64,000 bases of DNA from an uncultured Gemmatimonadaceae bacterium (GTDB taxonomy: Bacteria; Gemmatimonadota; Gemmatimonadetes; Gemmatimonadales; Gemmatimonadaceae), in NCBI GenBank assembly GCA_963829055.1, contig CAWHHI010000020.1, positions 960,001-1,024,000 of the forward strand, written 5' to 3'. The translations under genes and the position numbers were made by a program. The notes beneath the pieces are model-generated. The model was not told the origin of the DNA, ran no database searches, and was given only the letters and a program-made list of their open reading frames with translations. Below are positions 136 to 63,331 of the stretch, piece by piece (within the stretch, counting starts at the first letter, position 1; the number at the start of each line of letters is the position of its first letter).

Positions 136-2455
136 TCAGCGCGTCGGTCCGGCCGGGTGTTCGATCATCACGTGCGACCACCACGTTCCCGACGCCATGA
201 CGTACGGCATCTGGGTCCGCTGGAGATCGGACACTGTCGACTCGTCAGGCAAGCCCATCGACACTGCAGTGGCAAACGGGACGTGGAGCGACTGCCAGCG
301 ATTCATTTGCGCCGTTACCGCGCCGGTCGCCGGAACGTATGCGTCCTGAGGACCGAGCACGCGGTAGCCGGCCGCCGGATGCGCGGGCAGCGTCAGCGTC
401 CCCGCGCGCACGTCTGCCGTGATGCGTGCGTCGAGCGAGTCACTCGTTAGGCCCGACCGAAGCAGGTCACCAACCCGGAACATGAGCCGAATCATCGTCG
501 CCTCGTAGCACCGCGCGTCCCACGCCGCCTCACCGGGCACAACCCGCATGCACACCATGCCGTTCGATCCTTGTCGCACGACGACTCGACGGCCCGGCGA
601 TTCGATACGCATCACCGTCGCACCGCTTTGCAGTTGCTCCGGCAGCGGCAGCACCGCGAAGCGGATGTCGTCGCCGACCGCGTCGTTGCCTCCGACCGCC
701 GCTGGCCTGAAGCGCCCGGCCGCACCGGCACGCACCTCGGCCAGCGCGGGGACGTCTGCGTCCGCGCGTTTCCAGATCGTCAGTAGTTGCGTGTACGACT
801 TGATTGCCGCGTCACGGTCACCCATGGCGACACGTGCACGCGCCAACCCGAGCAGTGAGGCAGACCGGTTGGGTACATGGGCGAGCACGCGCTCGAACTG
901 GGCAGCCGCACTGTCGGCACGCCCGGCTTTCATGTACTCGGCGCCGAGGAGCTCTCGGGCGAAAAGGAACGAGGGCGGGCCAACCATCGGAATCTGATCC
1001 TCGAAGTCGCCGGCGTGAGAGAAGCGCTCGATCGCCCGCGACCGGTCTCCGCGCGCTTGCGCGAGCAACCCCTCGAGCTGCGACGCCAGGAAGTCAAACG
1101 CGGGCGGCGCGCGACGACCGGCGGAATCAGCGCGGGACCGGAACGTGGCAGCGCCCGCCGCCAGCGCCGCCGTATCTCCGCGCACTCCCTGAATAACGAC
1201 GCGCTCGTAATCGGCGCGCATCGCGAAGAACTGCTCGCGTCCGTTCTGCGCCGGCCTTTTAGCAGTTGGCGGAAGGACCGCGTCGTTCCAGCGGCCGGTC
1301 TGGGCGGCCGCGAGAAACGCCAGGTTCGACACGGCGTAGCGTCCATCGATGTGGGACGCGGCGGAGACGTCGGCGTTCCCGATCACCCGGCGCGCGGAAT
1401 CGACCAGCGCACGCGCAGCACGCCAGCGTCCGCTCTCGAGATACGCGTAGGAGAGAAAGAGCAGGCTGTGCGAGTCGAGCTCGGCTCCGCTGAGGTGGTC
1501 ACGCGACCATCTCGCGACGCCATGCGGCCCACGACCGCTCGTTCGACGCGGCGACTTCGTCCCACAGTCCGAGCCGAAGGAATACGTGGGACGGCATGTG
1601 CAGTGCGTGCGACGCGTCCGGTGCTATTCGCGCGTAGGCACGGGCCGCGGGCAGCGCGGACGTCGTGAACGATGGATCCTCGTCGGAAATGTGGATGAGA
1701 TAGTGCGGCGCTCCGGGGTGGTTCGGATTCGTCCTGAACACGTGCTCGGCGCGCTCGACCATCTGCTTCGCCCGAACCTTCTTTGTGTCGGGCGGGTACG
1801 CGTCCTCGCCGATCGCTATCACGAGTGCGAGTGACGTGAACGCGGCAGCCTCCAGGTCGTCGGGGTACAGGCTCGTTAGGCTGCGCATCGAATCCGCGAA
1901 CGCGCGAGCGCGAACCTCCATCGATGTGTCGGCGAAGAACGCCTCGATGGCAGCACCATAGGCGCGTTCGCGCGGCGTCGCTGCCCGGGCCAGGCGGGCT
2001 TGCAGCGTCGGTTCCAGCCGCGCGAGCACCTGACGGGCCGCCTTGGGGTCATCCTCGCTCCACAGCGGGTGCGAGTGCGTGAACGCCTCGAACCAGTACG
2101 GAAGGGCGAACGCGGTGTCGGCGCGCTCGGCGGCTTGAAAGGCTTTCGCCGCCTCCTCGTAATGGAAGCTGTGCAGGAACGCGATTCCGCGGAGAAACGC
2201 CGCCTGAGCGCGAGCGTTGGCTGAGGTTGGGAATGCAACTGTGCCCAGGCGCGGAGCGCCTTCGCCTCTGGCGTCGTGCGCGTGTGTGTCGGCCTGGGCG
2301 ACCAGCGGGTGAGCCTGAAGCGCCAGCGCGAGCGCCGTCGTTCGGGCGATCCGTCGTACCCACTGGCGGCGGATCGAACCCGCCTGATCAATGTGTCGTG
2401 TCATTGTTCTCGAAGCCGTATGCGAGTCGTATGTGCGTTCGCGACTCGACGACAT
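136..2455 (-). CDS. Secreted TPR-repeat protein fused to a C-terminal conserved hypothetical domain; one frameshift at ~1500
   Basis: ORF 1499..2455 has a signal peptide (ALALALQAHPLVAQA) and the motifs GTVAFPTS..AQAAFLRGIAFLHSFHY, HPGAPHYLIH and HALHMPSHVF. It continues in another frame (DHLSGAELDSHSLLFLSYAYLESG..VIGNA) into ORF 136..1386. The true start may be ~2402. Confidence 0.75.
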
Positions 2456-2657
2456 GTGGGTGGGCTCGCGCCGAACGGTGGCAACGACGCCTAACGACCA
2501 GTATACGGCGCGCGTCCGGGACGGGATAGAGCCAGCCGTGCCGCAGCCGCGTCTCCTGCTCGCCTGGGGAGTCGGCAGCGTCCTTGACGGTCACCACAAT
2601 GGGCCCCATGGTTCCCGCGCGTGACTGGAGCATTCCCGTCCCCTTTCCCAGCGACGA

Positions 2658-2873
2658 GTGACGACGGCACCGCAACGTCTCACGACCGTGCTCGGCGATC
2701 GCTATCGCATCCCAGCCGGCAGCAGTCGAAGCGTTAGGCTCGGCGACGCACCGGTGCAGGGCCCGCGCACCGAATGGGACTCGTGGGACGGGCGACGGTT
2801 CGTCGTCGTCAAACCCGTCGACCGGCCCGACATCTATCTGCTTCGCAACTTCGGCGAGCTGCTGAAACGCTGA
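2658..2873 (+). pseudogene. Internally deleted Ser/Thr kinase remnant (N-terminus joined to C-terminus)
   Basis: MTTAPQRLTTVLGDRYRI matches the pre-kinase N-terminus. WDGRRFVVVK..IYLLRNFGELLKR resembles the C-terminus of kinase/beta-propeller proteins. The kinase core is absent. Confidence 0.55.
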
Positions 2874-2895
2874 TCCCGCCGCATCACTGACACGA

Positions 2896-5800
2896 TCAAG
2901 GCCCGAGGCGCGCGTGACGTCGCGCAGCCGCCGCCTGTTGCGCGTACGGGGCGTCGCCATGCTCCCACGCGCGCGCCACCCAGGCGTGGTGCACTGCAGC
3001 GCTATCCGCACGGCCCGCCGCGTCCCACGCCTGGGCCAGGAGCGCGTGCACCTCGGTGTGCGTCACATAATAGTTCGACGCGTCCACCTTCCCACGCAGC
3101 ACCGGCTGCAGGGCAGCGATCGCGTCGCGCGGGCGGCCACGCTCGAGCAGGACGACGGCGAGATCGTAGTTCACGCGCGTGTAGCCGGCGGGCCAGGAAA
3201 AGATCGCGGACCGAAATGCGGCCTCGGCGCCGTCCAGATCGTTTCGAGCGAGGAGTACGAGCCCATGGACGTAGCGACCGAGCCGGCGATCACGCACGTG
3301 TCCACTCTGCGCGCCCACGGCGTCGATCGTGTCCGCCAGCGCCACCACGGCCGCCGTATCCCCCGCGCTGGCAAGCGCTCGCGCCTTGTGCGTTAGGCGC
3401 CACGCCCGCTCCCGCGCCCGGCCGGACGGTGCCTCCTCCGGCGCCCGCCAGTGCGATATCGAATCGAACAGGGCGGCAGCCTCCCGGTACCGGCCAGCCT
3501 CGAACAGGATCGCCGCGAGGGGAGCGGCCGACGGCGACACGGCTCCCACGATCCCGCTGTCGAGCGGCACAGCCAGGGCGCGGTACTGTCGCGCGACGGT
3601 AGCGGCTTCCGTCAGCCGGCCCTGATAGCGAAGAGACAGGATGAGCTGCCAGAGCGCTTCGCGCTGCGCCGGTGCGTTGCCGGCTTGGAGCGCGGCACGA
3701 ACCAGTCGCTCGCCCGTCGTTAGGTCTCCGGTTCGGAGTGCGTGTGTCGACGTCCGGGTCACTGCCGCCACGGGATCCTGGTCGAGCGCGGCAATGCGCT
3801 CGGTCAATTTCGCGGCGTCCGTGAACTTCCCCGCGCGCTCGAATACATCCCAGAGCGCGATCCACGACGCGGCAATGTGGGGCTGCAGTTGCGTCCATCG
3901 CCGCGCTTCCCGCTCCGCCGCGGCGAGTGAGTCAGCCACATCGTAGGCAGCCACGATCTGGAACATTGCCGTACATGCGTTGCAGCCGCCCACGCTGTCC
4001 GCGCGCGTGAACGACAGGGAGTCCATGGCAATCACGCGCTGAAGAGGGGCGATGGCCGCCATGTACTCGCCGTCCTGAAGGCGCGCCAGACCGGCGTAGA
4101 GGTGGCCCTCTGTTTCCTGCGGGTACCGGTTCACGAGCGAATCGGCGACCACTCCCAGCTCAGGCGACGCCGCGAACCAGGCCCAGCCTGCTCGAATCGT
4201 CAACCGCTCTCGTTCCGTTGCACGTGCCGAGAGTCGCAGGGCCCGATTCAACCGGTTCATCATCGGCACGCGCAACGTCGATGTGCGACCATATTGGTAG
4301 GCCGCCATGGCAAACATGGAATCCTCTCGCACCGCCAACCCGAACAACCGTTCGGCCGTCGCAAGGTCTCCGTCCGCGAGCGACTGAAGTCCTTCGACGT
4401 AGAAGCTGTACGCCGCCACCGACCTGGTCGTGGCGCCGGCGATCGATCCCGAAGGAACAGGACTGCCGTGCGCCGCAACGAGGCGTGCCGTTCCGCTGTC
4501 CACCAGCGTGAAGAGGTCCTGCCCCTCGATCGAATGGACGCCGCTGATCGCGCCCGTCGCGAGGTCGACGCGCCGCAGATCGAGGCGAAGCATTCCCTCG
4601 GGACGCGCATACAGGATGCCGTCGATGATCTCCGTCGCCCCCGCCTGACGCGCCGCCTCCACAAAGCCCGCTGCGCCGGTGTCCGCCGGCGTTCGGAGGC
4701 GACGCAGCAGTTCCAGCATTCGCCCCGCACTGACGACCCGAAGTCCGCGCGAGCGCCCAAGGCTCGTGGCCAGAAGATCCGCGACCGGGCCGGCGAGCGC
4801 GCGCGTCGACGAGTCCGCACCGTAGCTGACGATGCGCCCCACCGCCACGACCACCGATGGCTCGTTAGGCGACAAGGTGCCGAAACGTCCCTTGAGTCCC
4901 TGCGTGGCCAGAAGCCCCGCAGCGGCGACGCCAGCCAGCGCCGGGATGAGCCATGCCCGAGTCCAGATGCGCGATGCCTGGCGAGTCGATTGGCGCGCGG
5001 CCACGCCGCTCGCGACCTCGACCGGAGCCGGCGATGGCGATGGCATCGCGCGCTCCACGGCGTCGCTCGCTGGCTCGGACTGGGGGACGACTCGCTCCAC
5101 CTCCGCCGCGACGTCCGGCGGCAGCTGATCGCCCGTTGCGATAGGCGGGGCAGCCGGCTCGGCCCGCGCGGCTCCGGGAGTGGGCCGGGTGACTTCATCA
5201 GAGTGCACGCGCAGCCGCTCGGCCAACGCGGTGACCTCCTTGTCCGGCGGAAGCTCGAGCTCCTGCTCGACGAGCAGTTCGTAGACGCGAGCGTGTCTGA
5301 TCGCGCCAGCACGATCGCCGGACGCGGTGAGCGCTTCCATGAGCCCAACCGCGACGCGGGCGTTGAGCGGCTCGAGTGCCGCGAGCCTTCGCCACCAGCC
5401 GACGGACACCGCGGCGTTCCCGCTAGCGAGCGCACTGCGTGCGAGTGACTCGACCACCCGCGCATGGTCCTGCGCAAGCACCGCGCGTTCGCGCTCGACC
5501 CACCGCGTGAATTCGTCGGCGCCGGAAACGTGGAAGCCGTCGAGGAATGGTCCAGCGTACAGCTCCGCCGCGCGTGCGTCGTTGCCGCGCGAGACCGCCG
5601 CGGCGAACTCGGTCACATCGGTCGTGACGAGCGCGGGATCAAAGCGGAGGTCCTTCGAGCCGCCGATCGCGTCTTCGGCGACCAGGTCCTTTCGCAGCGC
5701 GTAGAGCGCCTGGGAGAGCGTGCGCGATCCGCGCTCGTCGTCGGCGTCGGGCCAGAGCAGCGCGAGCACCTTGTCGCGTGACACGCCCCGCTCACCGGCG

Positions 5801-6761: not shown

Positions 6762-7193
6762 ATGACCTCGGATCAGGTTCTGCTCGTGCGGTCGTCGTGG
6801 GCGGCGATCGCGACGCACGGCGACGAACTGAGCGTGCGGTTCTACGACCATCTCTTCGCGATCGACTCGAGCGCGGCACGTCTTTTCTCCCATGTGGACA
6901 TGAGCGCGCAGCGAGCGAAGCTCGCGCAGATGCTCGGCGCGGTGGTCCACGCACTCGATGACATCGACAGCCTGCTGCCCACAGTCGCCGCACTCGGCAA
7001 ACGGCACACGCGGTACGGTGTCGAGCACCGGCACTTCGACAGCGTGGAAGAAGCGCTGTTCCGCGCGTTCTCCGATACGTTAGGCGCTGTCTTCACGGCG
7101 GAGCTGCGCGCGGCCTGGGCGGAAGCGTACGCGCTGATCGCATCGGTGATGAAGCGGGCACTGATGCGCAGTACCGAGAAGGCGAACGTGTAG
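6762..7193 (+). CDS. Single-domain globin (flavohaemoglobin-type globin domain)
   Basis: FYDHLF..LF..DMSAQRAKL..LGKRH..YGV..HFDSVEEAL..AW.EAY. Confidence 0.92.
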   Translation: MTSDQVLLVRSSWAAIATHGDELSVRFYDHLFAIDSSAARLFSHVDMSAQRAKLAQMLGAVVHALDDIDSLLPTVAALGKRHTRYGVEHRHFDSVEEALFRAFSDTLGAVFTAELRAAWAEAYALIASVMKRALMRSTEKANV

Positions 7194-8040: not shown

Positions 8041-9471
8041 ATGCGAACGGGAGCCAGCGTACGAGCAGCAGTGACGGCGGTGGTCGGGTGTGCGGCCACG
8101 CTGACCGCGCAACAACGGCCGCCACTCCCACCCGGCGTCGCCCCATACGTGTCGGTGAACGCACCGCTGGTCGCGCTCACGCACGTGCGCGTCGTCGACG
8201 GAACCGGCGCGCCGGCGCGCGATGATCAGACGATCGTGATTCGCGGCGAGCGGATCGACGCCGTCGGCCCCGCGAGCTCGACTCGCGTTCCCGCCGGCGC
8301 GCAGGTGCTCGATCTCACCGGCCACACCGTCATCCCCGGACTCGTCGGCCTGCACGAGCACACGTGGTTCGGCGGAGTGCGCGTGAGCACGCCGATGGGC
8401 GCGAGCGCGTCATCGCTATACCTCGCGATGGGCGTGACCACGGCCATGACCGCCGGCAGCGAGTTTCCGTATCACGAGCTGAATCTGAAACGCGCCGTGG
8501 ACGCGGGGTCGGTGCCCGGTCCCCGGTTCGAGATCGCCGGGCCCTATCTCAACGGCGGCCCACCGCGCGCCTCCGCGGGGCAGAGCATCGTGCGCTCGCC
8601 GGCGGAAGCTCGACGCACCATCGCGTACTGGGCGAGCGAAGGCGCGACCTGGTTCAAGTTCCTCGGCGCGGAGACCCGCGCCGAGTTGGCGGCCGGGATC
8701 ACGGAGGCGCACGCGCGTGGACTCAAGGTCACGGGTCACCTCTGCTCCGTCACGTTCACCGAGGCGGCCGCGCTCGGGATCGACCTGCTCCAGCACGGGT
8801 TCATCACGAACAGCGAGTACGTGGCGAACAAGGCGCCTGACGTCTGCCCGCCAGAGAACATGCGCGCGCAGGCGAACGTCAATGTGAGCTCCGCGGCGGT
8901 GCAGGCGAGCATCCGCGCGATCGTGTCCCGCGGTGCCGCCGTTGCGTCCACGTTAGGCGTCTACGAGACCTTCATTCCCGAGCGCGCACGCCTCGACTCG
9001 GCTGCAATGGCGATGCTCGCGCCCGCCACACGCACGGAGGTCCAGGCCAACCACGCCGGCCTCGCTCAGAGCGGGTTCACCATTCCCGTACCGCTGTTGA
9101 AGAAGATGATGGAATGGGAACGCGCGTTCGTGCGCGCCGGAGGCCTGCTCGGCGCCGGTTGCGATCCGTGGGGCACCGGCTTCCTGCCCGGCTTCGGCGA
9201 TCTGCGGAACTACGAGTTGCTGCTCGAAGCCGGGTTCAAGCCTGAAGAAGCGGTGCAGATCATGACGTTCAACGGCGCGCGCATTCTGGGCAAGGAACGG
9301 CAGCTCGGCTCGATTGCACCCGGCAAGCTGGCGGACGTCGTGGTCATCCGGGGAAACCCGTTAGGCACGCCGCGAGCCATCTACAATGTCGTGACTGTGT
9401 TCAAGGGCGGCCTGGGCTACGATTCCGCACGGCTGCGGGAGGCGGTGAAGGGTCGAATCGGCGGGTCGTGA
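8041..9471 (+). CDS. Secreted amidohydrolase family protein
   Basis: Signal peptide; DLTGHTVIPGLVGLHEH; GVTT; GSIAPGKLADVVVI. Confidence 0.9.
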   Translation: MRTGASVRAAVTAVVGCAATLTAQQRPPLPPGVAPYVSVNAPLVALTHVRVVDGTGAPARDDQTIVIRGERIDAVGPASSTRVPAGAQVLDLTGHTVIPGLVGLHEHTWFGGVRVSTPMGASASSLYLAMGVTTAMTAGSEFPYHELNLKRAVDAGSVPGPRFEIAGPYLNGGPPRASAGQSIVRSPAEARRTIAYWASEGATWFKFLGAETRAELAAGITEAHARGLKVTGHLCSVTFTEAAALGIDLLQHGFITNSEYVANKAPDVCPPENMRAQANVNVSSAAVQASIRAIVSRGAAVASTLGVYETFIPERARLDSAAMAMLAPATRTEVQANHAGLAQSGFTIPVPLLKKMMEWERAFVRAGGLLGAGCDPWGTGFLPGFGDLRNYELLLEAGFKPEEAVQIMTFNGARILGKERQLGSIAPGKLADVVVIRGNPLGTPRAIYNVVTVFKGGLGYDSARLREAVKGRIGGS

Positions 9472-12589: not shown

Positions 12590-12690
12590 CCGCGTCGGAT
12601 CGCGTTAGGCGCTCGAACCGTACGAGGCGGTCACGGATTACCTGGGGCCGGACTGGTAGTAGAACGGCCGTTCTTGACGCAGAAGCCCCC

Positions 12691-27804: not shown

Positions 27805-27887
27805 GCATGAGATCGCACGAGACGCGCCCCGAGCTCGCCACGTTAGGCATGCCGTGCGGCCTTGGCTCGTGAACCGCCGATGCTGGA

Positions 27888-42462: not shown

Positions 42463-42749
42463 GAGACTCCAGGGCTGGCGTTGCTCGGCACGCCCGACGG
42501 ACGCGCTACGGACTCGATGCGTGTCATCGAGTGGGGCGCTCTGGCGAGCAATGCGCGTGCCCGCGGCGGCCCTCGCGCTCGATGCTCGGCGCAATGGACA
42601 ACCCGTTAGGCAACGCGCGTACGAACTGTACGGACCGTGCCACTGGCCCATCGTTTCAGCTCGCTTGCCGCAACACCGCCGTCGCCTATGTTGAGCAGCG
42701 TCGCGATGGTCCAGCCCGCCGCGTTACCTACGCTGTACCTTGGAGCCAG

Positions 42750-43520: not shown

Positions 43521-43556
43521 GCGCCACTCGACCCGTTTTCGCGAAGGCACCGCGCC

Positions 43557-45572
<2,016 letters not shown>

Positions 45573-45585
45573 CGCTGGCAGCAGG

Positions 45586-55260: not shown

Positions 55261-55632
55261 ATGTCTTGTTTTCGCCGCGCGCTCATTGGCGCCCTGATCC
55301 TGATGATGCCGGCGGCGCTCGCGGCGCAGACGCTGACGCCCGGAACGTGGACCGGATCGATTTCGCCACCGTCCGAGCAGAAGCTCGACGTGACGTTCGA
55401 TGTTCGCATGAGCGGCGATACGACGAAGATCACGATGAAGGGTGCCGGCAACGAGCTCGCTTTCGACGACGTCAAGGTGGCGGCGAGTCTTCTCGTCTTC
55501 ACGTTCTCACCCGGCGGCGGAGGCACGATCCGCTGCTCGCTGGCGCTTCAGGCCGACAAGAGCTATTCGGGCGACTGCGTCGACCCGCAAGGCGGGAAGG
55601 GCCAGATCGTCATGCGGCCGCCGAAGTCGTAG
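55261..55632 (+). CDS. Small secreted hypothetical protein (paralog of 61464..61832)
   Basis: GGAG RBS; signal peptide; GTWTG; two Cys. Confidence 0.85.
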   Translation: MSCFRRALIGALILMMPAALAAQTLTPGTWTGSISPPSEQKLDVTFDVRMSGDTTKITMKGAGNELAFDDVKVAASLLVFTFSPGGGGTIRCSLALQADKSYSGDCVDPQGGKGQIVMRPPKS

Positions 55633-55670
55633 CCTAACGACTCATCGCGGTCGGACATGGTCCGGTCGAC

Positions 55671-56852
55671 TCACCGCCCACGCCGTCGTCCTGGCAGGTC
55701 CATTCGCTCGTTTAGAATCTCGGCGTATCGGCTATAGCTGAAGACGCGTCCACGCTGCTTGCGTGTGAGCTCGGTAACGATTCCCAGTCGCTCGAGTGAC
55801 GCCAGCGCCTTGTTGATCGTTGCTTGCGCCAGGCCGGTACTCGCGCCGAGCGAGGCGGCCGTCGCGATTGGCTGCCGTTGTAAGTCGCAATGAACCACGA
55901 GGGCGGAACTGGCGGCACGACCCAACCCTTCGATGCGGCGGCTGTCCGAGGACGCGAGTTCCAGAAGACGCTTGGCGGAGTCGGAGGCCGAGGTGGCGGT
56001 GGCGGCGACCGCGTCGCAGAAGAACTCCAGCCATGCCTCCCAGTCACCCGTTAGGCGGACCTGATTGAGAAGGTCGTAGTAGGTCTGTCGGTGTTCCTTG
56101 AAGTGGAGGCTGAGATAGAGTAGCGGCTCACGGAGAAGCCCATCGGCACACAACTGCATCGTGATGAGTAGGCGGCCAATGCGACCGTTGCCGTCGAGGA
56201 ACGGATGAATCGTCTCGAACTGCACGTGGGCAAGCGCGGCCTTGATCAGCGGCGCTGTTGGCTCGGGCTGATCGTGAAGAAAACGTTCGAGATCCCTGAG
56301 ACAGTCCTGGACCTCGGTCGCGGGCGGCGGCACGAACACCGCGTTCCCGGGTCTGGTCCCGCCGATCCAGACCTGCGTTCGGCGGAGTTCCCCCGGCGCC
56401 AGACTCGCGCCGCGGCCATGACCAAGCAATACCTTGTGGATCTCGCGTAGGAGTCTCACCGAGAGCGGGAATCCGGCGCGCACTCTTTCGAGTCCGTGCT
56501 CGAGAGCTGCGACGTAAAGGCTCACCTCACGCGCATCGTCAACCGGGACACCGGGCTGTTCGTCGAGCTCGTACAGCATGAGGTCCGCAAGCGAGGATTG
56601 GGTACCCTCGATCATGGAGGAGAGCACCGCCTCTTTCCGCACGAAGCTGTACAACAGCAGGGCAGCGTTAGGTAGCAGGTCGGCGATAGCGTCGAGCCGC
56701 CCGAGCGCGAGAAGCGCTGCGTCGTAACGCCGTCGCAGCGCTGGCGTCCACTGGACGTCCGGACGAGGCGGAAGCGGCGTCGGGACAAAAGCCTTGAACG
56801 GCTCATCCGCAGAGCGGACCTGTAGGTAGCGACCCTGCGGCGTGCAATGCAT
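55671..56852 (-). CDS. Fic-family protein with internal inhibitory motif and C-terminal HTH
   Basis: HPFLDGNGRIGR; SSMIEG. Confidence 0.95.
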   Translation of the reverse strand: MHCTPQGRYLQVRSADEPFKAFVPTPLPPRPDVQWTPALRRRYDAALLALGRLDAIADLLPNAALLLYSFVRKEAVLSSMIEGTQSSLADLMLYELDEQPGVPVDDAREVSLYVAALEHGLERVRAGFPLSVRLLREIHKVLLGHGRGASLAPGELRRTQVWIGGTRPGNAVFVPPPATEVQDCLRDLERFLHDQPEPTAPLIKAALAHVQFETIHPFLDGNGRIGRLLITMQLCADGLLREPLLYLSLHFKEHRQTYYDLLNQVRLTGDWEAWLEFFCDAVAATATSASDSAKRLLELASSDSRRIEGLGRAASSALVVHCDLQRQPIATAASLGASTGLAQATINKALASLERLGIVTELTRKQRGRVFSYSRYAEILNERMDLPGRRRGR

Positions 56853-57007: not shown

Positions 57008-58645
57008 TCACCGCTTCGTCAGCGTAGGACGGGTGGGACTTTGCGCGAGGTCCCAGCTCAGCTGATGCACGAGCTTCGCGATGCGCTCCATCTTCGGATA
57101 GTTGATGCGGTCCGCCGTGTCAGTCGTTAGGTGGTAATCGGGGTGCAGGCCCGTGTGAAACCAGATCGCCGGCACCCCGTGCTGGAGGAACGGCCAGCTG
57201 TCGCTGCGCCTCACGAGCTGCGACGTGTTGTTGTCGTAGTTCTTCTTGAACGTGAGACCGTACGCGGCATTCGCGCGCTCCGCGGCCGCGGTGAGCGAGC
57301 TCCGGCTCCAGCCGAGCAGCGTGACCGTGTTCTTGTTGGACTCGCCCGTCTGGACCGGAAGTCCGCGAAACCGCGCGCCGCCGTTCTCCGGCACCTCTTC
57401 GTTCCGACCGATCATGTCCATGTTGATCATGGCCACCGTGCGATCCAGCGGAACTGACGGCGCCTCCGTGTAGCCCCACGACCCCATCAGCGGCCCGCGT
57501 TCCTCGGAGTTGAAGGACGCGAACAGGACCGAACGTTTTGGGCGTTGCCCGTTCGCCGCTGCCTTCGCGTACGCTTCGGCGATCGCGAGCAGCGCCGCGG
57601 CGCCGGACGCGTTGTCGTCGGCGCCGTGGAAGATCGTGTCGCCGACCGCGCCGTTGTGATCGGGATGCGCGGCGATGACGACCCACTCGTTCTTGAGGCG
57701 CGGGTCCGATCCCTCGATCGCGCCGAGCACGTTGCGATCGACAACCGTCCGCCTAACGACTGACGCGGTGACCGTCACGCGAACTCCGGCAATGGCGACA
57801 GGCGGCGAGCCTTTCGCGGTCTCCGACTCACGGGCAAGGTCGGCGAGTGACTTCCCCGCTCCGCGCACGAGACTGTCCCCGAGCGCGACGGAGATCTGGC
57901 CGACGGGAATCGTGAGCTTGTCGGCCCACGCCGCGAGCGTGTACGGCAGGAGATGTGGTGGCTGCGCCGGCCAGTAGCCGCGCGACGCCGCCTCGAAGTT
58001 CTGTGCACCCTGATGATTCTGCACATCGGTCACGAACAGCACCGCCGCCGCACCGCGCGCCTGCGCCGCGAGCGCCTTCTTGAGCGGGTTCGAGTACTCG
58101 GTGGTGACGACGCCATCGAACGCGCTCGTGCTGTCGGTCTCGCCGGGCTCGTGGTCGAGCACGAGCAATACCTTCCCGCGCACGTCGCCGCCGAGGTCGT
58201 CGTAGCCTAACGGTTGAGCGGTGATGCCGAAGTGCGCGAATACGAGCTCGCCGGTCGCGGTGCCCGACGCGCTGTACCGTAGTGGGTAGAACCCGGTCGT
58301 CAGGCCATAGCGGACCACCTGATCACCACGTGCGACGGCGAGCTCGTTGGTGCCGCTTCCGAGCGCCCCGAGCGATAGGCCGTATGGAAGGAGGTAGGAA
58401 CCGTTCGCACCCATGGGCTTGAGACCGAGCCACTTGAAGCGCGACGCAACCCACTCGAGCGCGATGGCGTTCTCGGGAGTGTCCGTTAGGCGGCCGCGGA
58501 GTTCATCACTGGCAAGGAACTCGAGGTCGGCCCGCATCTTCTGCGTCGTGATGACGTCGCTGGCGGGCGCACGCGTGGACTTCGCTGTCTGCGCGCCGAG
58601 GAGAGCGGGAAGAGCGATCGCGATCAGTGCAGAGATACGACGCAT
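57008..58645 (-). CDS. M28 family peptidase with PA domain
   Basis: LASDELRGR, AHPDH, GADDNASG, SEERG, NMDMIGR, RSDSWPF, HPDYH. Confidence 0.93.
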   Translation of the reverse strand: MRRISALIAIALPALLGAQTAKSTRAPASDVITTQKMRADLEFLASDELRGRLTDTPENAIALEWVASRFKWLGLKPMGANGSYLLPYGLSLGALGSGTNELAVARGDQVVRYGLTTGFYPLRYSASGTATGELVFAHFGITAQPLGYDDLGGDVRGKVLLVLDHEPGETDSTSAFDGVVTTEYSNPLKKALAAQARGAAAVLFVTDVQNHQGAQNFEAASRGYWPAQPPHLLPYTLAAWADKLTIPVGQISVALGDSLVRGAGKSLADLARESETAKGSPPVAIAGVRVTVTASVVRRTVVDRNVLGAIEGSDPRLKNEWVVIAAHPDHNGAVGDTIFHGADDNASGAAALLAIAEAYAKAAANGQRPKRSVLFASFNSEERGPLMGSWGYTEAPSVPLDRTVAMINMDMIGRNEEVPENGGARFRGLPVQTGESNKNTVTLLGWSRSSLTAAAERANAAYGLTFKKNYDNNTSQLVRRSDSWPFLQHGVPAIWFHTGLHPDYHLTTDTADRINYPKMERIAKLVHQLSWDLAQSPTRPTLTKR

Positions 58646-58828: not shown

Positions 58829-58830
58829 GG

Positions 58831-59780: not shown

Positions 59781-60589
59781 ATGTCAGACGAACGAGCGTC
59801 GCTACCTTCGTGCGGTGCGATCCTCCTCCGACTCTCGCTGTCCACACTCGCGGCACTCGCGGCGTCCAGCTGGCCCGTCGCCAACGCCGGCGCCCAGCGG
59901 CTCGAAGCCCTCTGGTACCTGCGCGGCGAGCAGAGCATCCAGTCCTTCCTCGCGAACGCCGACCAGATCGCGATCGTCGCTCCGCAAGTCTTCACGATGG
60001 ACTCGACGGGGATGATTCGCGGGCAGGTCGATCCGCGGGTGATCGAGACCGCTCGCGCGAAGGGCGTGAAGCTCATGCCGCTGGTGATGAATGCGGCGCG
60101 TTCGACTACAAGGCGCTCGCCGATACGCTCGACTTCATCTCGTACATGACGTACGCGCAGCACACGGGCGGCTCTCCTCCGGGACCAGTGGCGGGCTATC
60201 CGTGGATGAAGGCGTGCCTCGAGTATGTGCTGTCGCTCGGCGTGCCGCCATCGAAGATCTCGTTAGGCCTCGCCGCGTATTCGGACTGGTGGTACCCCGC
60301 CTACGACGAGACGAACGGCGCTCGGCTGCGCGGCAGCGACGTCTCGTACGTGCGCGTCAAGGCGATCCTCGACAGCGCGGGAGTGAAGCCGATCTGGGAC
60401 GCCACTCAGAAGTCGCCGCACGCGATGTGGGAGGTGCAGGACGTCTTCCGTCACGCATGGCTCGAGGACGCACGCGCATTCATGGCCAAGCGTGAGCTCG
60501 CGCGGAGGTATCGCCTGCGCGGCTACTCGGTGTGGGTGTTAGGCAGCGAGGATGCGGCGGTCTGGGGCCTGCTCAGGGCGCACCCGTGA
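59781..60589 (+). pseudogene. GH18 family protein with internal deletion of the catalytic segment
   Basis: N-part ends KLMPLVMN and abuts, in another frame, FDYKAL..MTY.QH..GPVA..KISLG..WLEDA..GYSVWVLG.ED; no DxxDxDxE motif. Confidence 0.75.
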
Positions 60590-61288: not shown

Positions 61289-61463
61289 TCGCGCGCCTCA
61301 CCTCGGATGAGGCAACGCTACGGTCGTTCGTGCGAGCCGGCAAGCGGTGCGCGTGTCATCCACGCCCAAGCGCGCCTGGAACCTGGGGGGTCGTCGAGCC
61401 GTACCGAGGGAACAGCGTGTGATGTGCACCTGACCGCACAACGGCTCTTCCCTGGAGAATTAC

Positions 61464-61832
61464 ATGCACTCCCTGCATCGACTACTCATCGGCGCGCTCA
61501 TTCTCGCGATGCCGGCCTCGCTGGCGGCGCAGAAGCTGACCCCCGGCACCTGGACCGGGACGATGTCCCCTCCGGGGAACCAGACGATGGACATGGCCTT
61601 CGACGTTCGTGTGAGCGGTGACACGACGAAGATCACGATGAAGGGCGGCGGCCTCGAGATGGAGGTCACCGGCGTCAAGGTCGAGGCCAACCGACTCCTG
61701 TTCACGTTTACGCCCGGCGATGCAACGGTCCAGTGCACGTTGCTGCTTCGCGATGACAAGAGCTACTCGGGAGATTGCGTCGATCTCCAGGGCGCCAAGG
61801 GCGTGATCGTCATGAAGCCACCGAAGGCGTAG
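61464..61832 (+). CDS. Small secreted hypothetical protein (paralog of 55261..55632)
   Basis: GGAG RBS; shares LTPGTWTG, FDVR.SGDTTKITMKG and DKSYSGDCVD.QG.KG.IVM.PPK. Confidence 0.85.
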   Translation: MHSLHRLLIGALILAMPASLAAQKLTPGTWTGTMSPPGNQTMDMAFDVRVSGDTTKITMKGGGLEMEVTGVKVEANRLLFTFTPGDATVQCTLLLRDDKSYSGDCVDLQGAKGVIVMKPPKA

Positions 61833-61858
61833 CCTGCGAACGGCCCTCGGAATGACAG

Positions 61859-63331
61859 CTAGGGCGTGCGCACCGCGACGCGCCCGACCACGCGAATCCA
61901 GTTCACGCGACCGCCGTCGTCACGCACGAACTCAATGGACTGGCCGAGGTCCGGGCCGTCCGTGACGACGGCGCGGTCGCGTCCGAAGAAGGCGATCGGA
62001 AACTCGCGAGGGGTGCCGTTCCCGGTAGGACGGTCCTGCACGATCAGCTTTCCGCCCTCGGCGCGCACGACGACCGTGTTGCTCGGGCGCGCGTATGAGC
62101 CCACGTACGGCGCGAGGTCGGGCTGCCGCGCGAGCGGCTTCACGGACGGCAGCGTCTCGACGAGCCCGCGATGCGCGATGCCCTGATTGAGCGCGTACGT
62201 AGCGTCGAGGTAGGACTTGAGCGCCTCGCGCTCGACGTCCTGTATGAGGCGCCAGCCGGTATTCGAGTTCGTCAGGATGGCGATGGCAAAGTTGCGCTCC
62301 GGCACGAGCTCGAGGAGCAGGATGTGTCCGCCTAACGTGCCGCCGTGGGAGAACGTGCGGATCGGGCCGACGTGGCGCATGTGCCACGAGATGCCGATCG
62401 AGTCGTCGGTGCTCTGCTTGGCGCTCTGCGCCGTGCGCATGAGCTCGAGGGACTTGCGCTCGAGCACGCGCTCGCCGTTAGGCGCGGTGCCGTCGCCCAG
62501 ATGGAAGCGCGCGTAGGTGAGGATGTCCGTGATGCAGAGCCCGACGCCGCCGGCGGTGACGCTCGCCGATGGCGAGAATGGACGCTGGAGCGTCGTCTTG
62601 CCGTCGCGTGTGGAATGGCCGGCCGCGAATCGATTGACGATGAAATCGCCCGGCGTCGTTCCCGCATGCTCGAGGCCTAACGGCTGGAACACGAGGTCGC
62701 GGATGGCGCGGTTGATGGACGTGCCCGTCGCGACCTCGATGACGCGCCCCGCGATGCTGAAGCCGGCGTTGTTGTAGCTCCACGCCTTGCCGGGCGGCGC
62801 GACCTGCATCAGGTCGGTGAGCGTCGGCGACGCGACGAAGTTCTCGAGTGTGGCGCTGCCACGGTCGGGACCGGAGACCTGCCCTTCCCAGCCGCCGAGG
62901 TGCGTGAGGAGATGCCACACGGTGACGTCGCGGCTCACGGTCGAGTCGCGCACGCGGAAGTTGGGGATGTAGGTCCGCACGGGTGCACGGAGGTCGACCT
63001 TCCCCTGCTCGACGAGCCGCATCATCGCGGTCGCGGCGAACGTCTTCGAGATCGATGCGATCGGGAAGACGGTGTGCGCGGTGACGGGCAGCGAGTCTTC
63101 GACGTTGGTGATGCCGAGTCCACGTGTGGTCACGGTGTTGCCGTCGATGATTCCGAGGGCGACGCCGGGGACGCCGAACTCCTTCATCTTCGCTTCGGTG
63201 AGCGCCACGAGCGCGTCGAAGCGCGGATTGCTGGCGGCTTGTGCGTGTAGCTCGCGGTCGCCGACAAACGGCATCGCGAGCACGGCGACCGCGACGTATG
63301 CCGCGGGTCGTCGACGAGGGAGAGTGCGCAT
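61859..63331 (-). CDS. Serine hydrolase, beta-lactamase/class C family
   Basis: F.IASISK (SxxK), LLTH, YNN, HGG. Confidence 0.93.
   Translation of the reverse strand: MRTLPRRRPAAYVAVAVLAMPFVGDRELHAQAASNPRFDALVALTEAKMKEFGVPGVALGIIDGNTVTTRGLGITNVEDSLPVTAHTVFPIASISKTFAATAMMRLVEQGKVDLRAPVRTYIPNFRVRDSTVSRDVTVWHLLTHLGGWEGQVSGPDRGSATLENFVASPTLTDLMQVAPPGKAWSYNNAGFSIAGRVIEVATGTSINRAIRDLVFQPLGLEHAGTTPGDFIVNRFAAGHSTRDGKTTLQRPFSPSASVTAGGVGLCITDILTYARFHLGDGTAPNGERVLERKSLELMRTAQSAKQSTDDSIGISWHMRHVGPIRTFSHGGTLGGHILLLELVPERNFAIAILTNSNTGWRLIQDVEREALKSYLDATYALNQGIAHRGLVETLPSVKPLARQPDLAPYVGSYARPSNTVVVRAEGGKLIVQDRPTGNGTPREFPIAFFGRDRAVVTDGPDLGQSIEFVRDDGGRVNWIRVVGRVAVRTP

What the first reader, a model, noticed from the sequence alone, without database searches (positions are those of the whole stretch)
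446..62681. Highly iterated non-palindromic motif (C)GTTAGGC / GCCTAAC(G) throughout the window, mostly inside genes
Seen: hand count of about 78 GTTAGG/CCTAAC hexamers (44 on +, 34 on -), about 64 of them the full GTTAGGC, roughly one per 0.8 kb (e.g. 446, 1875, 2489, 8952, 13992, 24145, 32375, 43516, 48271, 62477). A zero-order estimate at ~69% GC is about 7 heptamers. Genes accommodate it in several frames, using codons rare at this GC content: TTA-GGC (LG), CCT-AAC (PN), CTA-ACG (LT). It also supplies stop codons (32376, 43520, 45572). Inference: this is a DNA-level signal, analogous to cyanobacterial HIP1, DNA uptake sequences or nucleoid-protein/methyltransferase sites. It lacks the strong strand polarity of Chi or KOPS and is not palindromic like HIP1. 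I do not recognise a described system for it; the cognate protein need not be encoded in this window.
Basis: partly seen in the sequence, partly recalled or inferred. Interest (0 to 1): 0.85.

Follow-up and report, generated by a model that had tools for sequence, protein, structure and literature searches.

The report
Genome-wide CGTTAGGC word in Gemmatimonadaceae
This soil bacterium and some of its relatives have written one exact 8-letter DNA word thousands of times into genes, stop codons and spacers against their own codon habits, which points to an unknown protein that reads the DNA itself; the word is also the core recombination site of the integrons these bacteria carry.

Summary
The window holds 78 GTTAGG, 64 GTTAGGC and 58 CGTTAGGC, against 2.8 heptamers expected.

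The full word is CGTTAGGC. The genome has 5004 copies in 7.78 Mb and it is the most over-represented 8-mer. That is 49x over an order-2 Markov model and 15-37x over synonymous-codon shuffles.

- It lies on both strands, in every frame without a stop, and supplies stop codons.
- It shows no replication polarity and is spaced more evenly than chance.
- Sites are conserved 2.5x above control words within the genus.
- Representatives of 33 of 77 Gemmatimonadaceae genera are rich in it; 44 sit at baseline. One genus is mixed, and variant words occur.

Contigs from four other sequencing studies carry the same sites, so it is not an assembly artefact. No C5, N4/N6 or type I methylase, Vsr or RecC was found.

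The word equals the R' core of integron attC sites in this order, but at least 98% of copies are lone cores, and integrase presence does not track abundance.

My best reading, at 0.4, is a self-tag of the DNA-uptake-sequence type. The function is not shown.

The parts
445..452 (+). 8-mer; antisense in ORF 139-1386(-), read GC-CTA-ACG (Leu-Thr)
1874..1881 (+). 8-mer; antisense in ORF 1502-2404(-), CTA-ACG
2489..2496 (-). 8-mer; no ORF called
2732..2739 (+). 8-mer; no ORF called
3391..3398 (+). 8-mer; antisense in ORF 2899-5826(-), CTA-ACG
4863..4870 (+). 8-mer; antisense in ORF 2899-5826(-), CCT-AAC (Pro-Asn)
7078..7085 (+). 8-mer; sense in globin ORF 6762-7190(+), TTA-GGC (Leu-Gly)
8951..8958 (+). 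8-mer; sense in ORF 8149-9468(+), TTA-GGC
9359..9366 (+). 8-mer; sense in ORF 8149-9468(+), TTA-GGC
9608..9614 (-). 7-mer only; sense in ORF 9482-10651(-), TTA-GGC
9778..9785 (+). 8-mer; antisense in ORF 9482-10651(-), CCT-AAC
11817..11824 (+). 8-mer; no ORF called
12603..12610 (+). 8-mer; no ORF called
13991..13998 (+). 8-mer; sense in ORF 13741-14778(+), TTA-GGC
14848..14855 (-). 8-mer; no ORF called
16272..16279 (-). 8-mer; supplies the TAA stop (16275-16277) of ORF 15666-16277(+)
16592..16599 (+). 8-mer; inside the fragmented tricorn-protease region (antisense to a doubtful short ORF)
17396..17403 (-). 8-mer; antisense in ORF 16788-17696(+), CCT-AAC
18032..18039 (+). 8-mer; sense in ORF 17752-18405(+), TTA-GGC
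18403..18409 (-). 7-mer only; supplies the TAA stop (18406-18408) of ORF 17629-18408(+)
18803..18810 (-). 8-mer; antisense in ORF 18609-19646(+), CCT-AAC
20407..20414 (-). 8-mer; sense in MFS transporter ORF 19918-21180(-), TTA-GGC
21007..21014 (-). 8-mer; sense in ORF 19918-21180(-), TTA-GGC
21869..21876 (-). 8-mer; no ORF called
22394..22401 (-). 8-mer; sense in ORF 22214-23206(-), TTA-GGC
24145..24152 (-). 8-mer; antisense in ORF 23540-24214(+), CCT-AAC
24471..24478 (-). 8-mer; sense in ORF 24198-24677(-), TTA-GGC
25150..25157 (-). 8-mer; sense in ORF 24742-26223(-), TTA-GGC
26824..26831 (+). 8-mer; antisense in ORF 26645-27490(-), CCT-AAC
27332..27338 (-). 7-mer only; sense in ORF 26645-27490(-), TTA-GGC
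27841..27848 (+). 8-mer; no ORF called
29269..29276 (+). 8-mer; no ORF called
30690..30696 (+). 7-mer only; sense in ORF 29542-30870(+), TTA-GGC
32075..32082 (+). 8-mer; sense in ORF 31393-32349(+), TTA-GGC
32374..32381 (+). 8-mer; its complement supplies the TAA stop of ORF 32379-32798(-)
32883..32890 (-). 8-mer; sense in ORF 32785-34218(-), GTT-AGG (Val-Arg)
33591..33598 (+). 8-mer; antisense in ORF 32785-34218(-), CCT-AAC
34618..34625 (+). 8-mer; antisense in ORF 34226-35704(-), CCT-AAC
34826..34832 (-). 7-mer only; sense in ORF 34226-35704(-), TTA-GGC
36072..36079 (+). 8-mer; antisense in ORF 35929-36594(-), CCT-AAC
37052..37059 (-). 8-mer; sense in ORF 36581-37357(-), TTA-GGC
38777..38784 (+). 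8-mer; antisense in ORF 38616-39986(-), CCT-AAC
39042..39049 (+). 8-mer; antisense in ORF 38616-39986(-), CTA-ACG
40466..40473 (+). 8-mer; antisense in amidohydrolase ORF 39986-41467(-), CTA-ACG; shared with G003 and G004, and CGTCAGGC / CGTGAGGC / CGTCAGCC in G005, G001, G002
41622..41629 (-). 8-mer; sense in ORF 41571-41972(-), TTA-GGC
42604..42611 (+). 8-mer; no ORF called
43515..43522 (+). 8-mer; supplies the TAG stop (43518-43520) of ORF 42531-43520(+)
44872..44879 (+). 8-mer; sense in Ser/Thr kinase ORF 43557-45569(+), TTA-GGC
45567..45574 (-). 8-mer; supplies the TAA stop (45570-45572) of ORF 43557-45572(+)
48270..48277 (+). 8-mer; antisense in polyphosphate kinase ORF 48208-51333(-), CCT-AAC
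49311..49318 (+). 8-mer; antisense in ORF 48208-51333(-), CCT-AAC
49716..49723 (-). 8-mer; sense in ORF 48208-51333(-), GTT-AGG
54679..54686 (-). 8-mer; antisense in epimerase ORF 53963-55138(+), CCT-AAC; shared with G001 and G002, not with G003-G005
54859..54866 (-). 8-mer; antisense in ORF 53963-55138(+), CCT-AAC; G000 only among 6 congeners (Asn where the others have Ser or Ala)
55632..55639 (-). 8-mer; abuts the end of ORF 55261-55629(+)
56049..56056 (+). 8-mer; antisense in Fic ORF 55674-56852(-), CTA-ACG
57751..57758 (-). 8-mer; sense in M28 peptidase ORF 57011-58690(-), GTT-AGG; shared with G001 and G005
58205..58212 (-). 8-mer; sense in ORF 57011-58690(-), CCG-TTA-GGC where G001 has CCA-CTG-GGC and G005 CCG-CTC-GGC (same Pro-Leu-Gly)
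58484..58491 (+). 8-mer; antisense in ORF 57011-58690(-), CTA-ACG; absent in G001
60261..60268 (+). 8-mer; sense in ORF 60188-60586(+), TTA-GGC
60538..60544 (+). 7-mer only; sense in ORF 60188-60586(+), TTA-GGC
62330..62337 (-). 8-mer; sense in beta-lactamase-family ORF 61862-63283(-), TTA-GGC
62476..62483 (+). 8-mer; antisense in ORF 61862-63283(-), CCT-AAC
62675..62682 (-). 8-mer; sense in ORF 61862-63283(-), TTA-GGC

Best explanation
SHOWN: CGTTAGGC (weak flanks, D before and R after) is a DNA-level word that a sequence-specific process has driven to about 5000 scattered single copies in this Gemmatimonadaceae genome. It works against GC and codon bias, is held back only by protein coding, and is kept at orthologous positions within the genus. 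INFERRED, most likely mechanism: it is a self-tag of the DNA-uptake-sequence type (DUS of Neisseriaceae, USS of Pasteurellaceae). In that model a still unidentified DNA receptor of the competence machinery binds the 8-mer in double-stranded DNA in either orientation. Fragments that carry it are taken up and recombined more often. Alleles with the word therefore replace alleles without it (molecular drive) until roughly one copy per gene-sized fragment is reached. Lineages that lose or never had the receptor drift back to baseline. ComEC, a ComEA-like HHH protein, a secretin and seven type IV pilin-like proteins are encoded in the genome.
For: Size of the excess is in the class of uptake sequences and HIP1. 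There are 5004 copies against 102 expected (order-2 Markov) or 19 expected (background with the core masked), and it is the top 8-mer by z-score under orders 2 and 3. Codon-aware excess is 37x sense and 15x antisense.
Both strands are equal (2547/2457). There is no replication polarity (355 of 639 on the G-rich strand across the C16 skew switch) and only 53:47 sense to antisense.
Flanks are not conserved and copies are single. Gaps under 200 bp number 215 against 611 expected; gaps of 400-1600 bp number 2593 against 2086. Per-gene counts are under-dispersed.
The word is made by several synonymous changes to rare codons, and sometimes by amino-acid changes.
Sites are conserved: 43 of 75 against G005, versus 22.7% for same-composition control 8-mers.
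Density is four times lower in the lowest-GC genes than in the highest-GC genes, although the word is AT-rich for this genome. It is zero in three 30-50 kb stretches that look foreign or chimeric.
The distribution is lineage-specific and graded. Thirty-three of 77 genus representatives have at least 35 copies per Mb and 44 have at most 19 per Mb. Genus g56 is split. Outside the family, 116 of 119 genomes have at most 91 copies.
Variant words occur in relatives: CGTTTGGC in G010, CGTTATGC in G030.
Uptake hardware is present: ComEC in G000 and in 139 of 151 family genomes; an HHH_3 match, a secretin and 7 pilin-like genes in G000.
The methylase and repair rival lacks its enzymes.
Against: No uptake, binding or transformation data exist for any member, and no paper links the phylum to uptake sequences. 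The competence genes are just as present in motif-poor relatives, so they do not discriminate. No receptor candidate was identified: profiling a basic pilin-like protein across genus g56 aligned only the shared N-terminal helix. The close inverted pairs that serve as terminators in Neisseria are absent. The ComEA-like match in G000 is only a partial 81-residue frame. Positional conservation is also what selection for a chromosomal function would give, as argued for HIP1 (PMC5861425, abstract). The exact identity with the integron core site is not explained by this model unless the receptor's specificity is tied to integrons.
Confidence: 0.4

Rival explanations
1. HIP1-like selected word. An abundant DNA-binding protein, for example a nucleoid or chromosome-organising factor, reads CGTTAGGC, and each site is kept by selection for a chromosomal function unrelated to DNA uptake.
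For: Sites are conserved 2.5x above control words. Spacing is even and per-gene counts under-dispersed. The fold excess lies within the 15-300x reported for HIP1, and the HIP1 authors argue for selection from site conservation (PMC5861425, abstract). Abundance is graded across lineages.
Against: The word is not palindromic. The methyltransferases that go with HIP1 have no counterpart here. An essential structural role fits poorly with sister species in one genus holding about 4000 copies or about 30. No candidate protein was found. I did not test long-range periodicity.
Confidence: 0.2
2. Integron-linked word. The copies are double-stranded R boxes read by the integron integrase or by a related tyrosine recombinase or partner. 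They could serve as landing or decoy sites. Alternatively the uptake or recombination machinery is tuned to the ends of gene cassettes, and the chromosome filled with that sequence as a by-product.
For: The 8-mer is the R' end of canonical 90-103 nt attC hairpins, with R'' GCCTAAC, in same-strand cassette arrays of the sister family. Integron integrase genes above the curated cut-off lie beside arrays in G019 and G463, and a frameshifted one in G021. G000 has an integrase at C20:208041-208958 (265.7 bits against a cut-off of 265) and two attC-like sites ending in the word nearby. The word fits GTTRRRY / RYYYAAC (PMC12901181 and PMC5027507, passages). By my estimate a random heptamer fits that consensus with a chance of about 0.002. 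Integrases insert cassettes into genomes outside att sites (bioRxiv 10.1101/2022.09.11.507474, passages), and transformation feeds cassettes to chromosomal integrons in Vibrio (PMC12614218, abstract).
Against: Integrase presence does not track abundance. It is found in 98 of 151 family genomes, including motif-poor G007, G008, G009, G011, G012 and G016. It was not found in motif-rich G004, G010, G065, G056 and G058. At least 98% of copies are lone cores: an inverse core lies 25-150 nt upstream of 86 of 5002 sites and downstream of 73. Genome insertion needs only GWT. Other GTTRRRY members are not enriched: CGTTAAGC 24 copies, CGTTAGAC 24, CGTTGGGC 0.65x. Thousands of insertion sites inside genes should be harmful.
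Confidence: 0.12
3. Biased repair or gene conversion without uptake. A mismatch- or nick-directed repair activity converts near-matches into CGTTAGGC, as very-short-patch repair does for Dcm sites.
For: The word is created against mutation bias by many small changes. The most common non-word orthologous states are one-off GC-richer variants such as CGTCAGGC, which is itself 2.9x enriched.
Against: No Vsr and no C5, N4/N6 or type I-like methylase match was found in G000 (86% complete) or G066 (96% complete). The only DNA methylase match in G000 is a broken D12-class gene that motif-poor genomes also have. Known repair biases give far smaller excesses (recalled). Positional conservation argued against this model for HIP1.
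Confidence: 0.1
4. Chi-like recombination hotspot read by a helicase-nuclease during double-strand-break repair.
For: It is an over-represented, asymmetric 8-mer spread through the core genome. There is a slight excess on the G-rich strand (55.6%).
Against: Polarity is far below that of known Chi sites (recalled: about 75% or more). The excess is one to two orders of magnitude larger than for known Chi (recalled). RecC (PF04257) was not found in 5 of 5 genomes tested. AddAB was not tested.
Confidence: 0.04
5. Artefact, or a by-product of codon or peptide usage or of a dispersed repeat.
For: G000 looks like a long-read assembly with many frameshifted genes.
Against: Contigs from four runs of four studies (2017-2024) cover window 54000-63900 at about 99% identity. 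None of the 40 best-supported differences shown (of 263) falls in any of the 12 sites there. Fragmented assemblies of congeners and of G014 carry the word at equal or higher density. Codon-aware shuffles exclude a codon or peptide cause. Flanks are not conserved.
Confidence: 0.01

Closest known systems
DNA uptake sequences: DUS of Neisseriaceae and USS of Pasteurellaceae
   Same: A short asymmetric word with thousands of single copies, about one per 1-1.5 kb. Both strands are used, mostly inside genes in the frames that tolerate it. It is restricted to a lineage with variant 'dialects' (PMC3630211, abstract). Density is lower in foreign DNA. Competence genes are present.
   Different: Different phylum. 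No uptake bias has been shown and no receptor is known. There are no inverted terminator pairs. Sister species can lack the word altogether, and the word is identical to the integron core site.
HIP1 (GCGATCGC) of cyanobacteria
   Same: A hyper-abundant octamer with an excess of 15-300x. Sites are conserved between genomes, spacing is non-random, abundance varies between lineages, and the function is debated. Recent work proposes a role in transformation (PMC5861425 and PMC13756078 abstracts; bioRxiv 10.1101/2024.09.10.611283, search listing only).
   Different: HIP1 is a palindrome recognised by two orphan methylases. This word is asymmetric, and no matching methylase was found.
Integron core site: R' box GTTRRRY of attC and attI, inverse core RYYYAAC
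   Same: Identical letters. GTTAGGC / GCCTAAC are the R' and R'' boxes of attC sites in cassette arrays of this order and next to G000's own integrase.
   Different: attC sites are 60-140 nt folded hairpins found in arrays. At least 98% of the 5004 copies are lone 8-mers inside ordinary genes with no partner core, and their number is unrelated to integrase presence.
Chi sites
   Same: An over-represented asymmetric octamer of the core genome.
   Different: There is no strong co-orientation with replication. The excess is much larger. RecC was not found.

Membership tests
DNA uptake sequences (DUS/USS) | Hundreds to thousands of copies, far above expectation, genome-wide | tested here: met
   5004 copies; 49x over order-2 Markov; 15-37x over synonymous shuffles
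DNA uptake sequences (DUS/USS) | Either orientation, no replichore polarity | tested here: met
   2547 forward and 2457 reverse; 55.6% on the G-rich strand at the C16 skew switch
DNA uptake sequences (DUS/USS) | Lineage-specific, with related variants ('dialects') | tested here: met
   33 of 77 genus representatives are rich. CGTTTGGC occurs in G010 and CGTTATGC in G030. Whether the variants are functional dialects is unknown.
DNA uptake sequences (DUS/USS) | Competence machinery encoded (ComEC, ComEA, type IV pilus or pseudopilus) | tested here: met
   It is equally present in motif-poor relatives, and the ComEA-like match in G000 is partial.
DNA uptake sequences (DUS/USS) | A receptor that binds the word (ComP-type minor pilin) | tested here: inconclusive
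   There are seven pilin-like genes, three of them strongly basic. The ortholog profile in genus g56 aligned only the N-terminal helix.
DNA uptake sequences (DUS/USS) | Preferential uptake or transformation by DNA carrying the word | not testable with these tools
   Needs an isolate or purified proteins
DNA uptake sequences (DUS/USS) | Inverted pairs acting as terminators (Neisseria type) | tested here: not met
   Pairs within 50 bp: 30 in total, 9 of them in opposite orientation. Short gaps are depleted.
HIP1-type iterated palindromes | Palindromic octamer | tested here: not met
   CGTTAGGC is not its own reverse complement
HIP1-type iterated palindromes | Cognate orphan methyltransferases | tested here: not met
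   No PF00145, PF01555 or PF02384 match in G000 or G066. The D12-class gene is broken in G000 and is shared with motif-poor genomes.
HIP1-type iterated palindromes | Sites conserved between genomes beyond control words | tested here: met
   43 of 75 against 22.7%
Integron attC / attI sites | Core sequence GTTRRRY with the crossover at G/TT | tested here: met
   GTTAGGC fits the consensus
Integron attC / attI sites | Paired inverse core and an imperfect hairpin of 60-140 nt | tested here: not met
   86 of 5002 sites have an inverse core upstream against 73 downstream. Only 5 site records (3 loci) have complementary ends.
Integron attC / attI sites | Integron integrase in the genome, with abundance following it | tested here: not met
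   An integrase is present in G000, but integrases occur in rich and poor genomes alike (98 of 151).
Chi | Strong co-orientation with replication | tested here: not met
   355 of 639 (55.6%)
Chi | Cognate RecBCD or AddAB | tested here: inconclusive
   RecC was found in 0 of 5 genomes. AddAB was not tested.
REP / MITE-type dispersed repeats | Conserved sequence beyond the core | tested here: not met
   Information content is about 0 beyond one base on each side
Restriction-modification target | Cognate methylase; sites usually avoided, not enriched | tested here: not met

The most novel reading that the evidence does not exclude
The word is the integron R box on purpose. In motif-rich Gemmatimonadaceae, a DNA-reading component of uptake or recombination has the same specificity as the ends of gene cassettes. 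This could be a competence receptor, or an integrase-family or integrase-partner protein. Environmental DNA carrying cassettes would then be favoured ('cassette fishing'), and the same bias has filled the chromosome with about 5000 lone R boxes by molecular drive. That would tie natural transformation, integron cassette traffic and genome-wide word accumulation into one system. It would also give every gene of these genomes a ready-made half of an attC site, which bears on the open question of how new cassettes arise.
Probability: 0.12. Interest if true: 0.95.

Novelty: new variant of a known kind. Interest (0 to 1): 0.8.

Why it matters
Sequence-specific DNA uptake is established only in two proteobacterial families, and the function of the cyanobacterial HIP1 word is still argued after three decades.

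A third, independent case would be useful. It sits in an abundant, little-cultivated soil phylum. It comes with natural on/off contrasts between sister species: genus g56 has either about 4000 copies or about 30.

That makes the question directly testable. Whole-proteome profiling across those contrasts should name the reader protein, and a pull-down with an 8-bp probe should confirm it.

The identity with the integron core site is unexpected. If it is causal, it links transformation to cassette capture or to the birth of cassettes.

Practically, the word is a sharp marker of native versus foreign or mis-binned DNA in Gemmatimonadaceae genomes assembled from metagenomes (three word-free contig ends were found here). 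It would also be the obvious element to add to DNA when trying to transform these bacteria.

Tried and rejected
**Methylase and Vsr profile.** Nothing goes with the word.

**RecC.** Not found in 5 of 5 genomes, so it says nothing for or against.

**ComEC, HHH_3, secretin and N_methyl families.** Present in rich and poor genomes alike, so they do not discriminate.

**Integron integrase as the driver.** Rejected as a simple correlate.

**Uma2 nuclease copy number (one copy lies in the window).** No association. Rich genomes: G000 has 9 copies, G014 10, G045 0, G058 0. Poor genomes: G009 has 12, G042 11, G011 0.

**Pilin ortholog profiling in genus g56 with the most basic pilin-like protein of G000.** Only residues 2-90 aligned. 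Uninformative, so dropped. The other six pilins were not profiled.

**Operator-like clusters.** Only 24 places have 3 or more sites within 400 bp, and none points to a regulator.

**attC scan.** No excess of paired cores.

**80 loci around polyphosphate kinase homologues from named genomes.** At most 3 copies per locus. This only showed that the closest named records are motif-poor.

**Tree building.** The treekit quick maximum-likelihood search did not finish in 288 s, so I used FastTree instead. It is a single-gene tree with many open forks and is not a species tree.

**Run search and read laying.** These used Logan contigs only, so there is no information on methylation or strands. 223 of the 263 differences were not shown, so 'no change in the sites' holds only for the 40 best-supported ones.

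**Notes of this scan for this genome.** None.

**Not attempted:** structure prediction, complex prediction, AddAB search, long-range periodicity test.

Full report
**1. The observation**

The window is G000:C20:960001-1024000 of a 7,784,024-base, 20-contig assembly. Record titles of the nearest polyphosphate-kinase loci place it in Gemmatimonadaceae.

Dinucleotide-preserving shuffles give 2.81 +/- 1.64 (largest 7; 0 of 100 reach 64).
- The hexamer count (78: 44 + and 34 -) is also exact, and 58 of the 64 are the 8-mer CGTTAGGC.
- Pfam annotation of 46 ORFs shows ordinary chromosomal genes: globin, amidohydrolases, peptidases, polyphosphate kinase, a Ser/Thr kinase, an MFS transporter and others. 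There is no mobile element.
- Rfam and ARAGORN find nothing in the window.

**2. The word and its excess**

- Genome-wide there are 5630 heptamers.
- The base before the heptamer is C in 89% of copies. Beyond that, only one weak position on each side carries information (not-C before, G or A after), in coding and in uncalled stretches alike.
- CGTTAGGC occurs 5004 times. Expected counts are 131, 102 and 258 under Markov orders 1, 2 and 3. It is the top 8-mer by z-score under orders 2 and 3.
- With the hexamer core masked out of the background, the expectation is 19.
- The core is strict. Most one-off core variants sit near expectation. The exceptions are CGTTATGC (583 copies, 11x) and CGTCAGGC (2.9x). 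Variants of the two end letters stay 9-65x enriched.

**3. It is not coding**

Gene calls come from my own ORF and codon-usage caller (6670 ORFs, coding fraction 0.74, an underestimate because the assembly has many frameshifted genes).

| Context | Copies |
|---|---|
| xCG-TTA-GGC (sense) | 1281 |
| C-GTT-AGG-C (sense) | 446 |
| GC-CTA-ACG (antisense) | 596 |
| G-CCT-AAC-G (antisense) | 910 |
| At ORF ends | 364 |
| Uncalled stretches | 1401 |
| Stop-frame remnants of the caller | 6 |

- The word supplies 182 of 1711 TAG stops and 207 of 821 TAA stops.
- Twenty within-gene synonymous shuffles give 46.5 +/- 5.9 sense and 97.8 +/- 9.9 antisense copies, against 1732 and 1511 observed.
- 47% of all TTA codons lie in the 8-mer.
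- Orthologue alignments with five congeners show how sites arise. At window 58205 the peptide Pro-Leu-Gly is CCG-TTA-GGC here but CCA-CTG-GGC or CCG-CTC-GGC in the others. At 54859 the word costs an amino-acid change, Asn where the others have Ser or Ala.

**4. It is real DNA**

- The stretch 54000-63900 is held by 20 runs of 16 studies.
- Logan contigs of four runs from four studies (2017, 2018, 2023, 2024) cover it at about 99% identity. None of the 40 best-supported differences shown (of 263) falls in any of its 12 sites.
- Congeners assembled into 260-1170 contigs, and G014 (300 contigs), carry the word at similar or higher density.

**5. Arrangement**

- Strands are equal, 2547 and 2457.
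- Across the only clear GC-skew and gene-orientation switch (C16, about 550 kb), 355 of 639 copies (55.6%) lie on the G-rich strand. That is no more than the 53:47 sense bias would give.
- Neighbouring copies share a strand in 51.9% of cases.
- Copies avoid each other. Gaps under 200 bp number 215 against 611 expected; gaps of 400-1600 bp number 2593 against 2086. Per-gene counts have variance below the mean.
- There are no operator-like clusters and no excess of close inverted pairs.
- Density rises from 0.22 per kb in the lowest-GC genes to 0.84 per kb in the highest-GC genes. That is the opposite of what composition predicts, and it is what one expects if recently acquired DNA lacks the word.
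- Three stretches of 30-50 kb at contig ends have no copy at all. They hold housekeeping genes (chorismate synthase, trp genes, DAHP synthase, FtsK, FolD, isocitrate lyase). Second copies of these, 46-67% identical, lie elsewhere in the assembly. These stretches are most likely chimeric or contaminant DNA.

**6. Conservation**

- In 143 kb aligned to congener G005 (78.5% identity), 43 of 75 G000 sites are intact in G005, and 43 of 77 the other way.
- The comparison values are 20.6% for all 8-column windows and 22.7% for same-composition control words.
- Against G014 (another rich genus) 4 of 10 are intact. Against G010, 3 of 76. Against motif-poor G007, 0 of 12.
- Where the word is missing, the relative mostly has C at the T, T, A positions, which is the GC-rich state.

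**7. Distribution**

Within the family, 401 genomes of 77 genera were searched.

- The genus representatives split into two groups. Thirty-three have at least 35 copies per Mb. Forty-four have at most 19 per Mb, which is below the reversed-word control.
- The highest densities are in g9 (about 1250 per Mb), g56, g62, g1, g47, g55, g80 and one g69 species.
- Genus g56 is mixed. Six species have 3244-4141 copies and eight have 4-66.

These tallies include genomes flagged unpublished (G013, G051, G052, G150, G264, G282, G309). Of the representatives, G052 counts as rich, and G013 and G051 as poor.

- Outside the family, 116 of 119 genomes of 11 families have at most 91 copies. The exception is genus g110 (181-726) (this includes unpublished G453 and G480). 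G030 of a third family has 345.
- De novo 8-mer ranking on fetched DNA shows the same word on top in G014 (124 in 99 kb).
- G010 has a second word, CGTTTGGC (111 in 400 kb), beside CGTTAGGC (63).
- In G030, CGTTATGC and CGTCAGGC rank on top.
- G018, G007, G009 and G016 have no hyper-abundant word.
- On a single-gene ComEC tree (FastTree, 61 rows, many open forks) the rich state needs at least 10 changes. Sisters are often opposite in state, for example G066/G166 beside G124 and G042. This suggests repeated loss or transfer of whatever drives the word, but a species tree is needed.

**8. Candidate drivers tested**

- *Methylases and repair.* No match to C5 methylase, N4/N6 methylase, type I-like N6 methylase or Vsr was found in G000 (86% complete) or in motif-rich G066 (96% complete). 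Motif-poor G124 and G007 do have them. A D12-class methylase is broken in G000 and is present in rich and poor genomes.
- *RecC.* Found in 0 of 5 genomes.
- *Competence genes.* ComEC is in 139 of 151 family genomes. HHH_3, secretin and pilin-like genes are in all five genomes tested.
- *Pilins.* G000 has seven pilin-like genes. Four lie in one operon at C12:400494-402983, and three are strongly basic. An ortholog profile of the most basic one was uninformative.
- *Uma2 nucleases.* Copy number does not follow the word.

**9. The integron connection**

- In motif-poor genomes of the sister family, the few copies lie in same-strand arrays 500-700 bp apart with no long ORFs. Examples are G021:C95:188-23656, G463:C12, C23 and C27, G466:C55 and G019:C3.
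- Each copy is the 3' end of a 90-103 nt imperfect hairpin. The hairpin starts with GCCTAAC and folds at about -27 to -31 kcal/mol on both strands.
- Integron integrase genes above the curated cut-off lie beside arrays in G019 and G463. A frameshifted one lies beside the array in G021.
- These are therefore integron cassette arrays, and the word is their R' box. It fits the published consensus R' GTTRRRY and R'' RYYYAAC (PMC12901181 and PMC5027507, passages).
- G000 has an integrase at C20:208041-208958 (265.7 bits, cut-off 265). Two attC-like sites ending in the word lie next to it, at C20:205101 and C20:207188.

Four results speak against a simple causal link.

- The genome-wide copies are not attC sites. 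An inverse core lies 25-150 nt upstream of 86 of 5002 sites, against 73 downstream.
- Integrases occur in 98 of 151 family genomes regardless of word density.
- Integrase-mediated insertion into genomes needs only GWT (preprint 10.1101/2022.09.11.507474, passages).
- Other members of the GTTRRRY consensus are not enriched.

Still, a random heptamer fits that consensus with a chance of only about 0.002 by my estimate. Transformation has also been shown to feed cassettes to a chromosomal integron in Vibrio (PMC12614218, abstract). I therefore keep a causal link as the boldest reading that is not excluded.

**10. Reading**

What is shown: a sequence-specific process acting on DNA has written and maintains this word.

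The pattern best matches uptake sequences. The relevant features are the size of the excess, orientation independence, single evenly spaced copies, accommodation by the proteome, lineage restriction with variant words, scarcity in foreign-looking DNA, and the presence of uptake hardware. It matches HIP1 second best.

I put a DUS/USS-like self-tag at 0.4, a selected HIP1-like chromosomal word at 0.2, an integron-linked function at 0.12, biased repair at 0.1, Chi at 0.04 and artefact at 0.01. The remainder is for something not yet considered. Copy numbers and polarity figures for DUS, USS and Chi used in these comparisons are recalled, not taken from a call.

**11. Is it in print?**

- Full-text searches for the 8-mer in either orientation returned 478 papers, and the 20 listed were primers and unrelated uses.
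- 'Gemmatimon' combined with either form of the 8-mer returned 25 papers. The 10 listed held both orientations of the word and not the taxon.
- 'Gemmatimon' with 'DNA uptake sequence' returned 0.
- Gemmatimonadetes with natural transformation and competence returned 4, none on such a word.
- A general search on hyper-abundant words returned only the DUS, USS and HIP1 literature.

I found no description of it. The 15 unlisted papers and papers outside the library could not be checked.

Three earlier AI notes of this scan, on other Gemmatimonadaceae genomes, report the same word with the same leading reading, and one notes the integron identity. They are not independent evidence.

Noticed in passing
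window 58660-58830: The intergenic stretch is built of three direct copies of GTCATTCCGAGCG and their inverted partner, plus a second nested inverted repeat. The word family TGTCATTCCGA / TCGGAATGACA has 606-1065 copies in the genome and tops the order-4 Markov ranking. In Logan contigs of four soil runs this spot has depth 74-314 against about 10 around it, with many indels and loose ends. It is therefore a REP/MITE-like element shared by many soil organisms.
   Followed up: partly
window 15666-19649: A tricorn-protease-like gene (PD40, Tricorn C1/PDZ and S41 domains) is spread over at least four overlapping ORFs in different frames. A secretin (C8:360651-361147) and a D12 methylase (C8:134909-135647) are broken in the same way. 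The assembly either carries many indel errors or many pseudogenes.
   Followed up: no
L191-L193 (G000:C6:5440-55037), L194-L196 (G000:C11:1-46789), L197-L198 (G000:C6:591808-623330): Three word-free stretches at contig ends (GC 0.66-0.73) carry housekeeping genes whose second copies, 46-67% identical, lie on word-rich contigs. They are probably chimeric joins or contaminant DNA in this assembly. The word is a usable marker for such regions.
   Followed up: partly
L291 (G000:C20:206541-210458): G000 has an integron integrase gene at C20:208041-208958 (minus strand, just over the curated cut-off). On the 3' side of the integrase, at lower coordinates, lie small same-strand ORFs each ending at a copy of the word. 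Two of those copies (C20:205101 and 207188) have an inverse-core-like CTAACG 80-85 nt upstream. A second partial integrase lies at C4:2862-3170.
   Followed up: partly
L279-L287 (G021:C95:1-30000, G021:C80, G021:C43, G463:C12, G463:C27, G466:C55, G019:C3, G029:C1): Large chromosomal integron cassette arrays occur in the sister family, with at least 27 attC ends on G021:C95 alone. The attC sites are highly uniform, 90-103 nt long. Arrays sit at contig ends, and integrases adjoin them in G463:C23, G019:C26 and G021:C80.
   Followed up: partly
L081-L100 (G010) and L111-L120 (G030): Relatives carry variant words. In G010, CGTTTGGC (111 in 400 kb, 6x) is more frequent than CGTTAGGC (63). In G030 of another family, CGTTATGC (14.5x) and CGTCAGGC (4.4x) rank on top. 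CGTTATGC is also the main secondary word in G000, with 583 copies.
   Followed up: partly
window 14948-15505: A Uma2-family (PD-(D/E)XK) nuclease gene. The family has 9 copies in G000 and 0-14 in relatives, with no relation to word density.
   Followed up: yes
G000:C16, about 550 kb: A sharp switch of GC skew (+ to -) and of gene orientation (up to 99% on one strand on either side). It looks like a replication terminus with unusually strong gene co-orientation.
   Followed up: no
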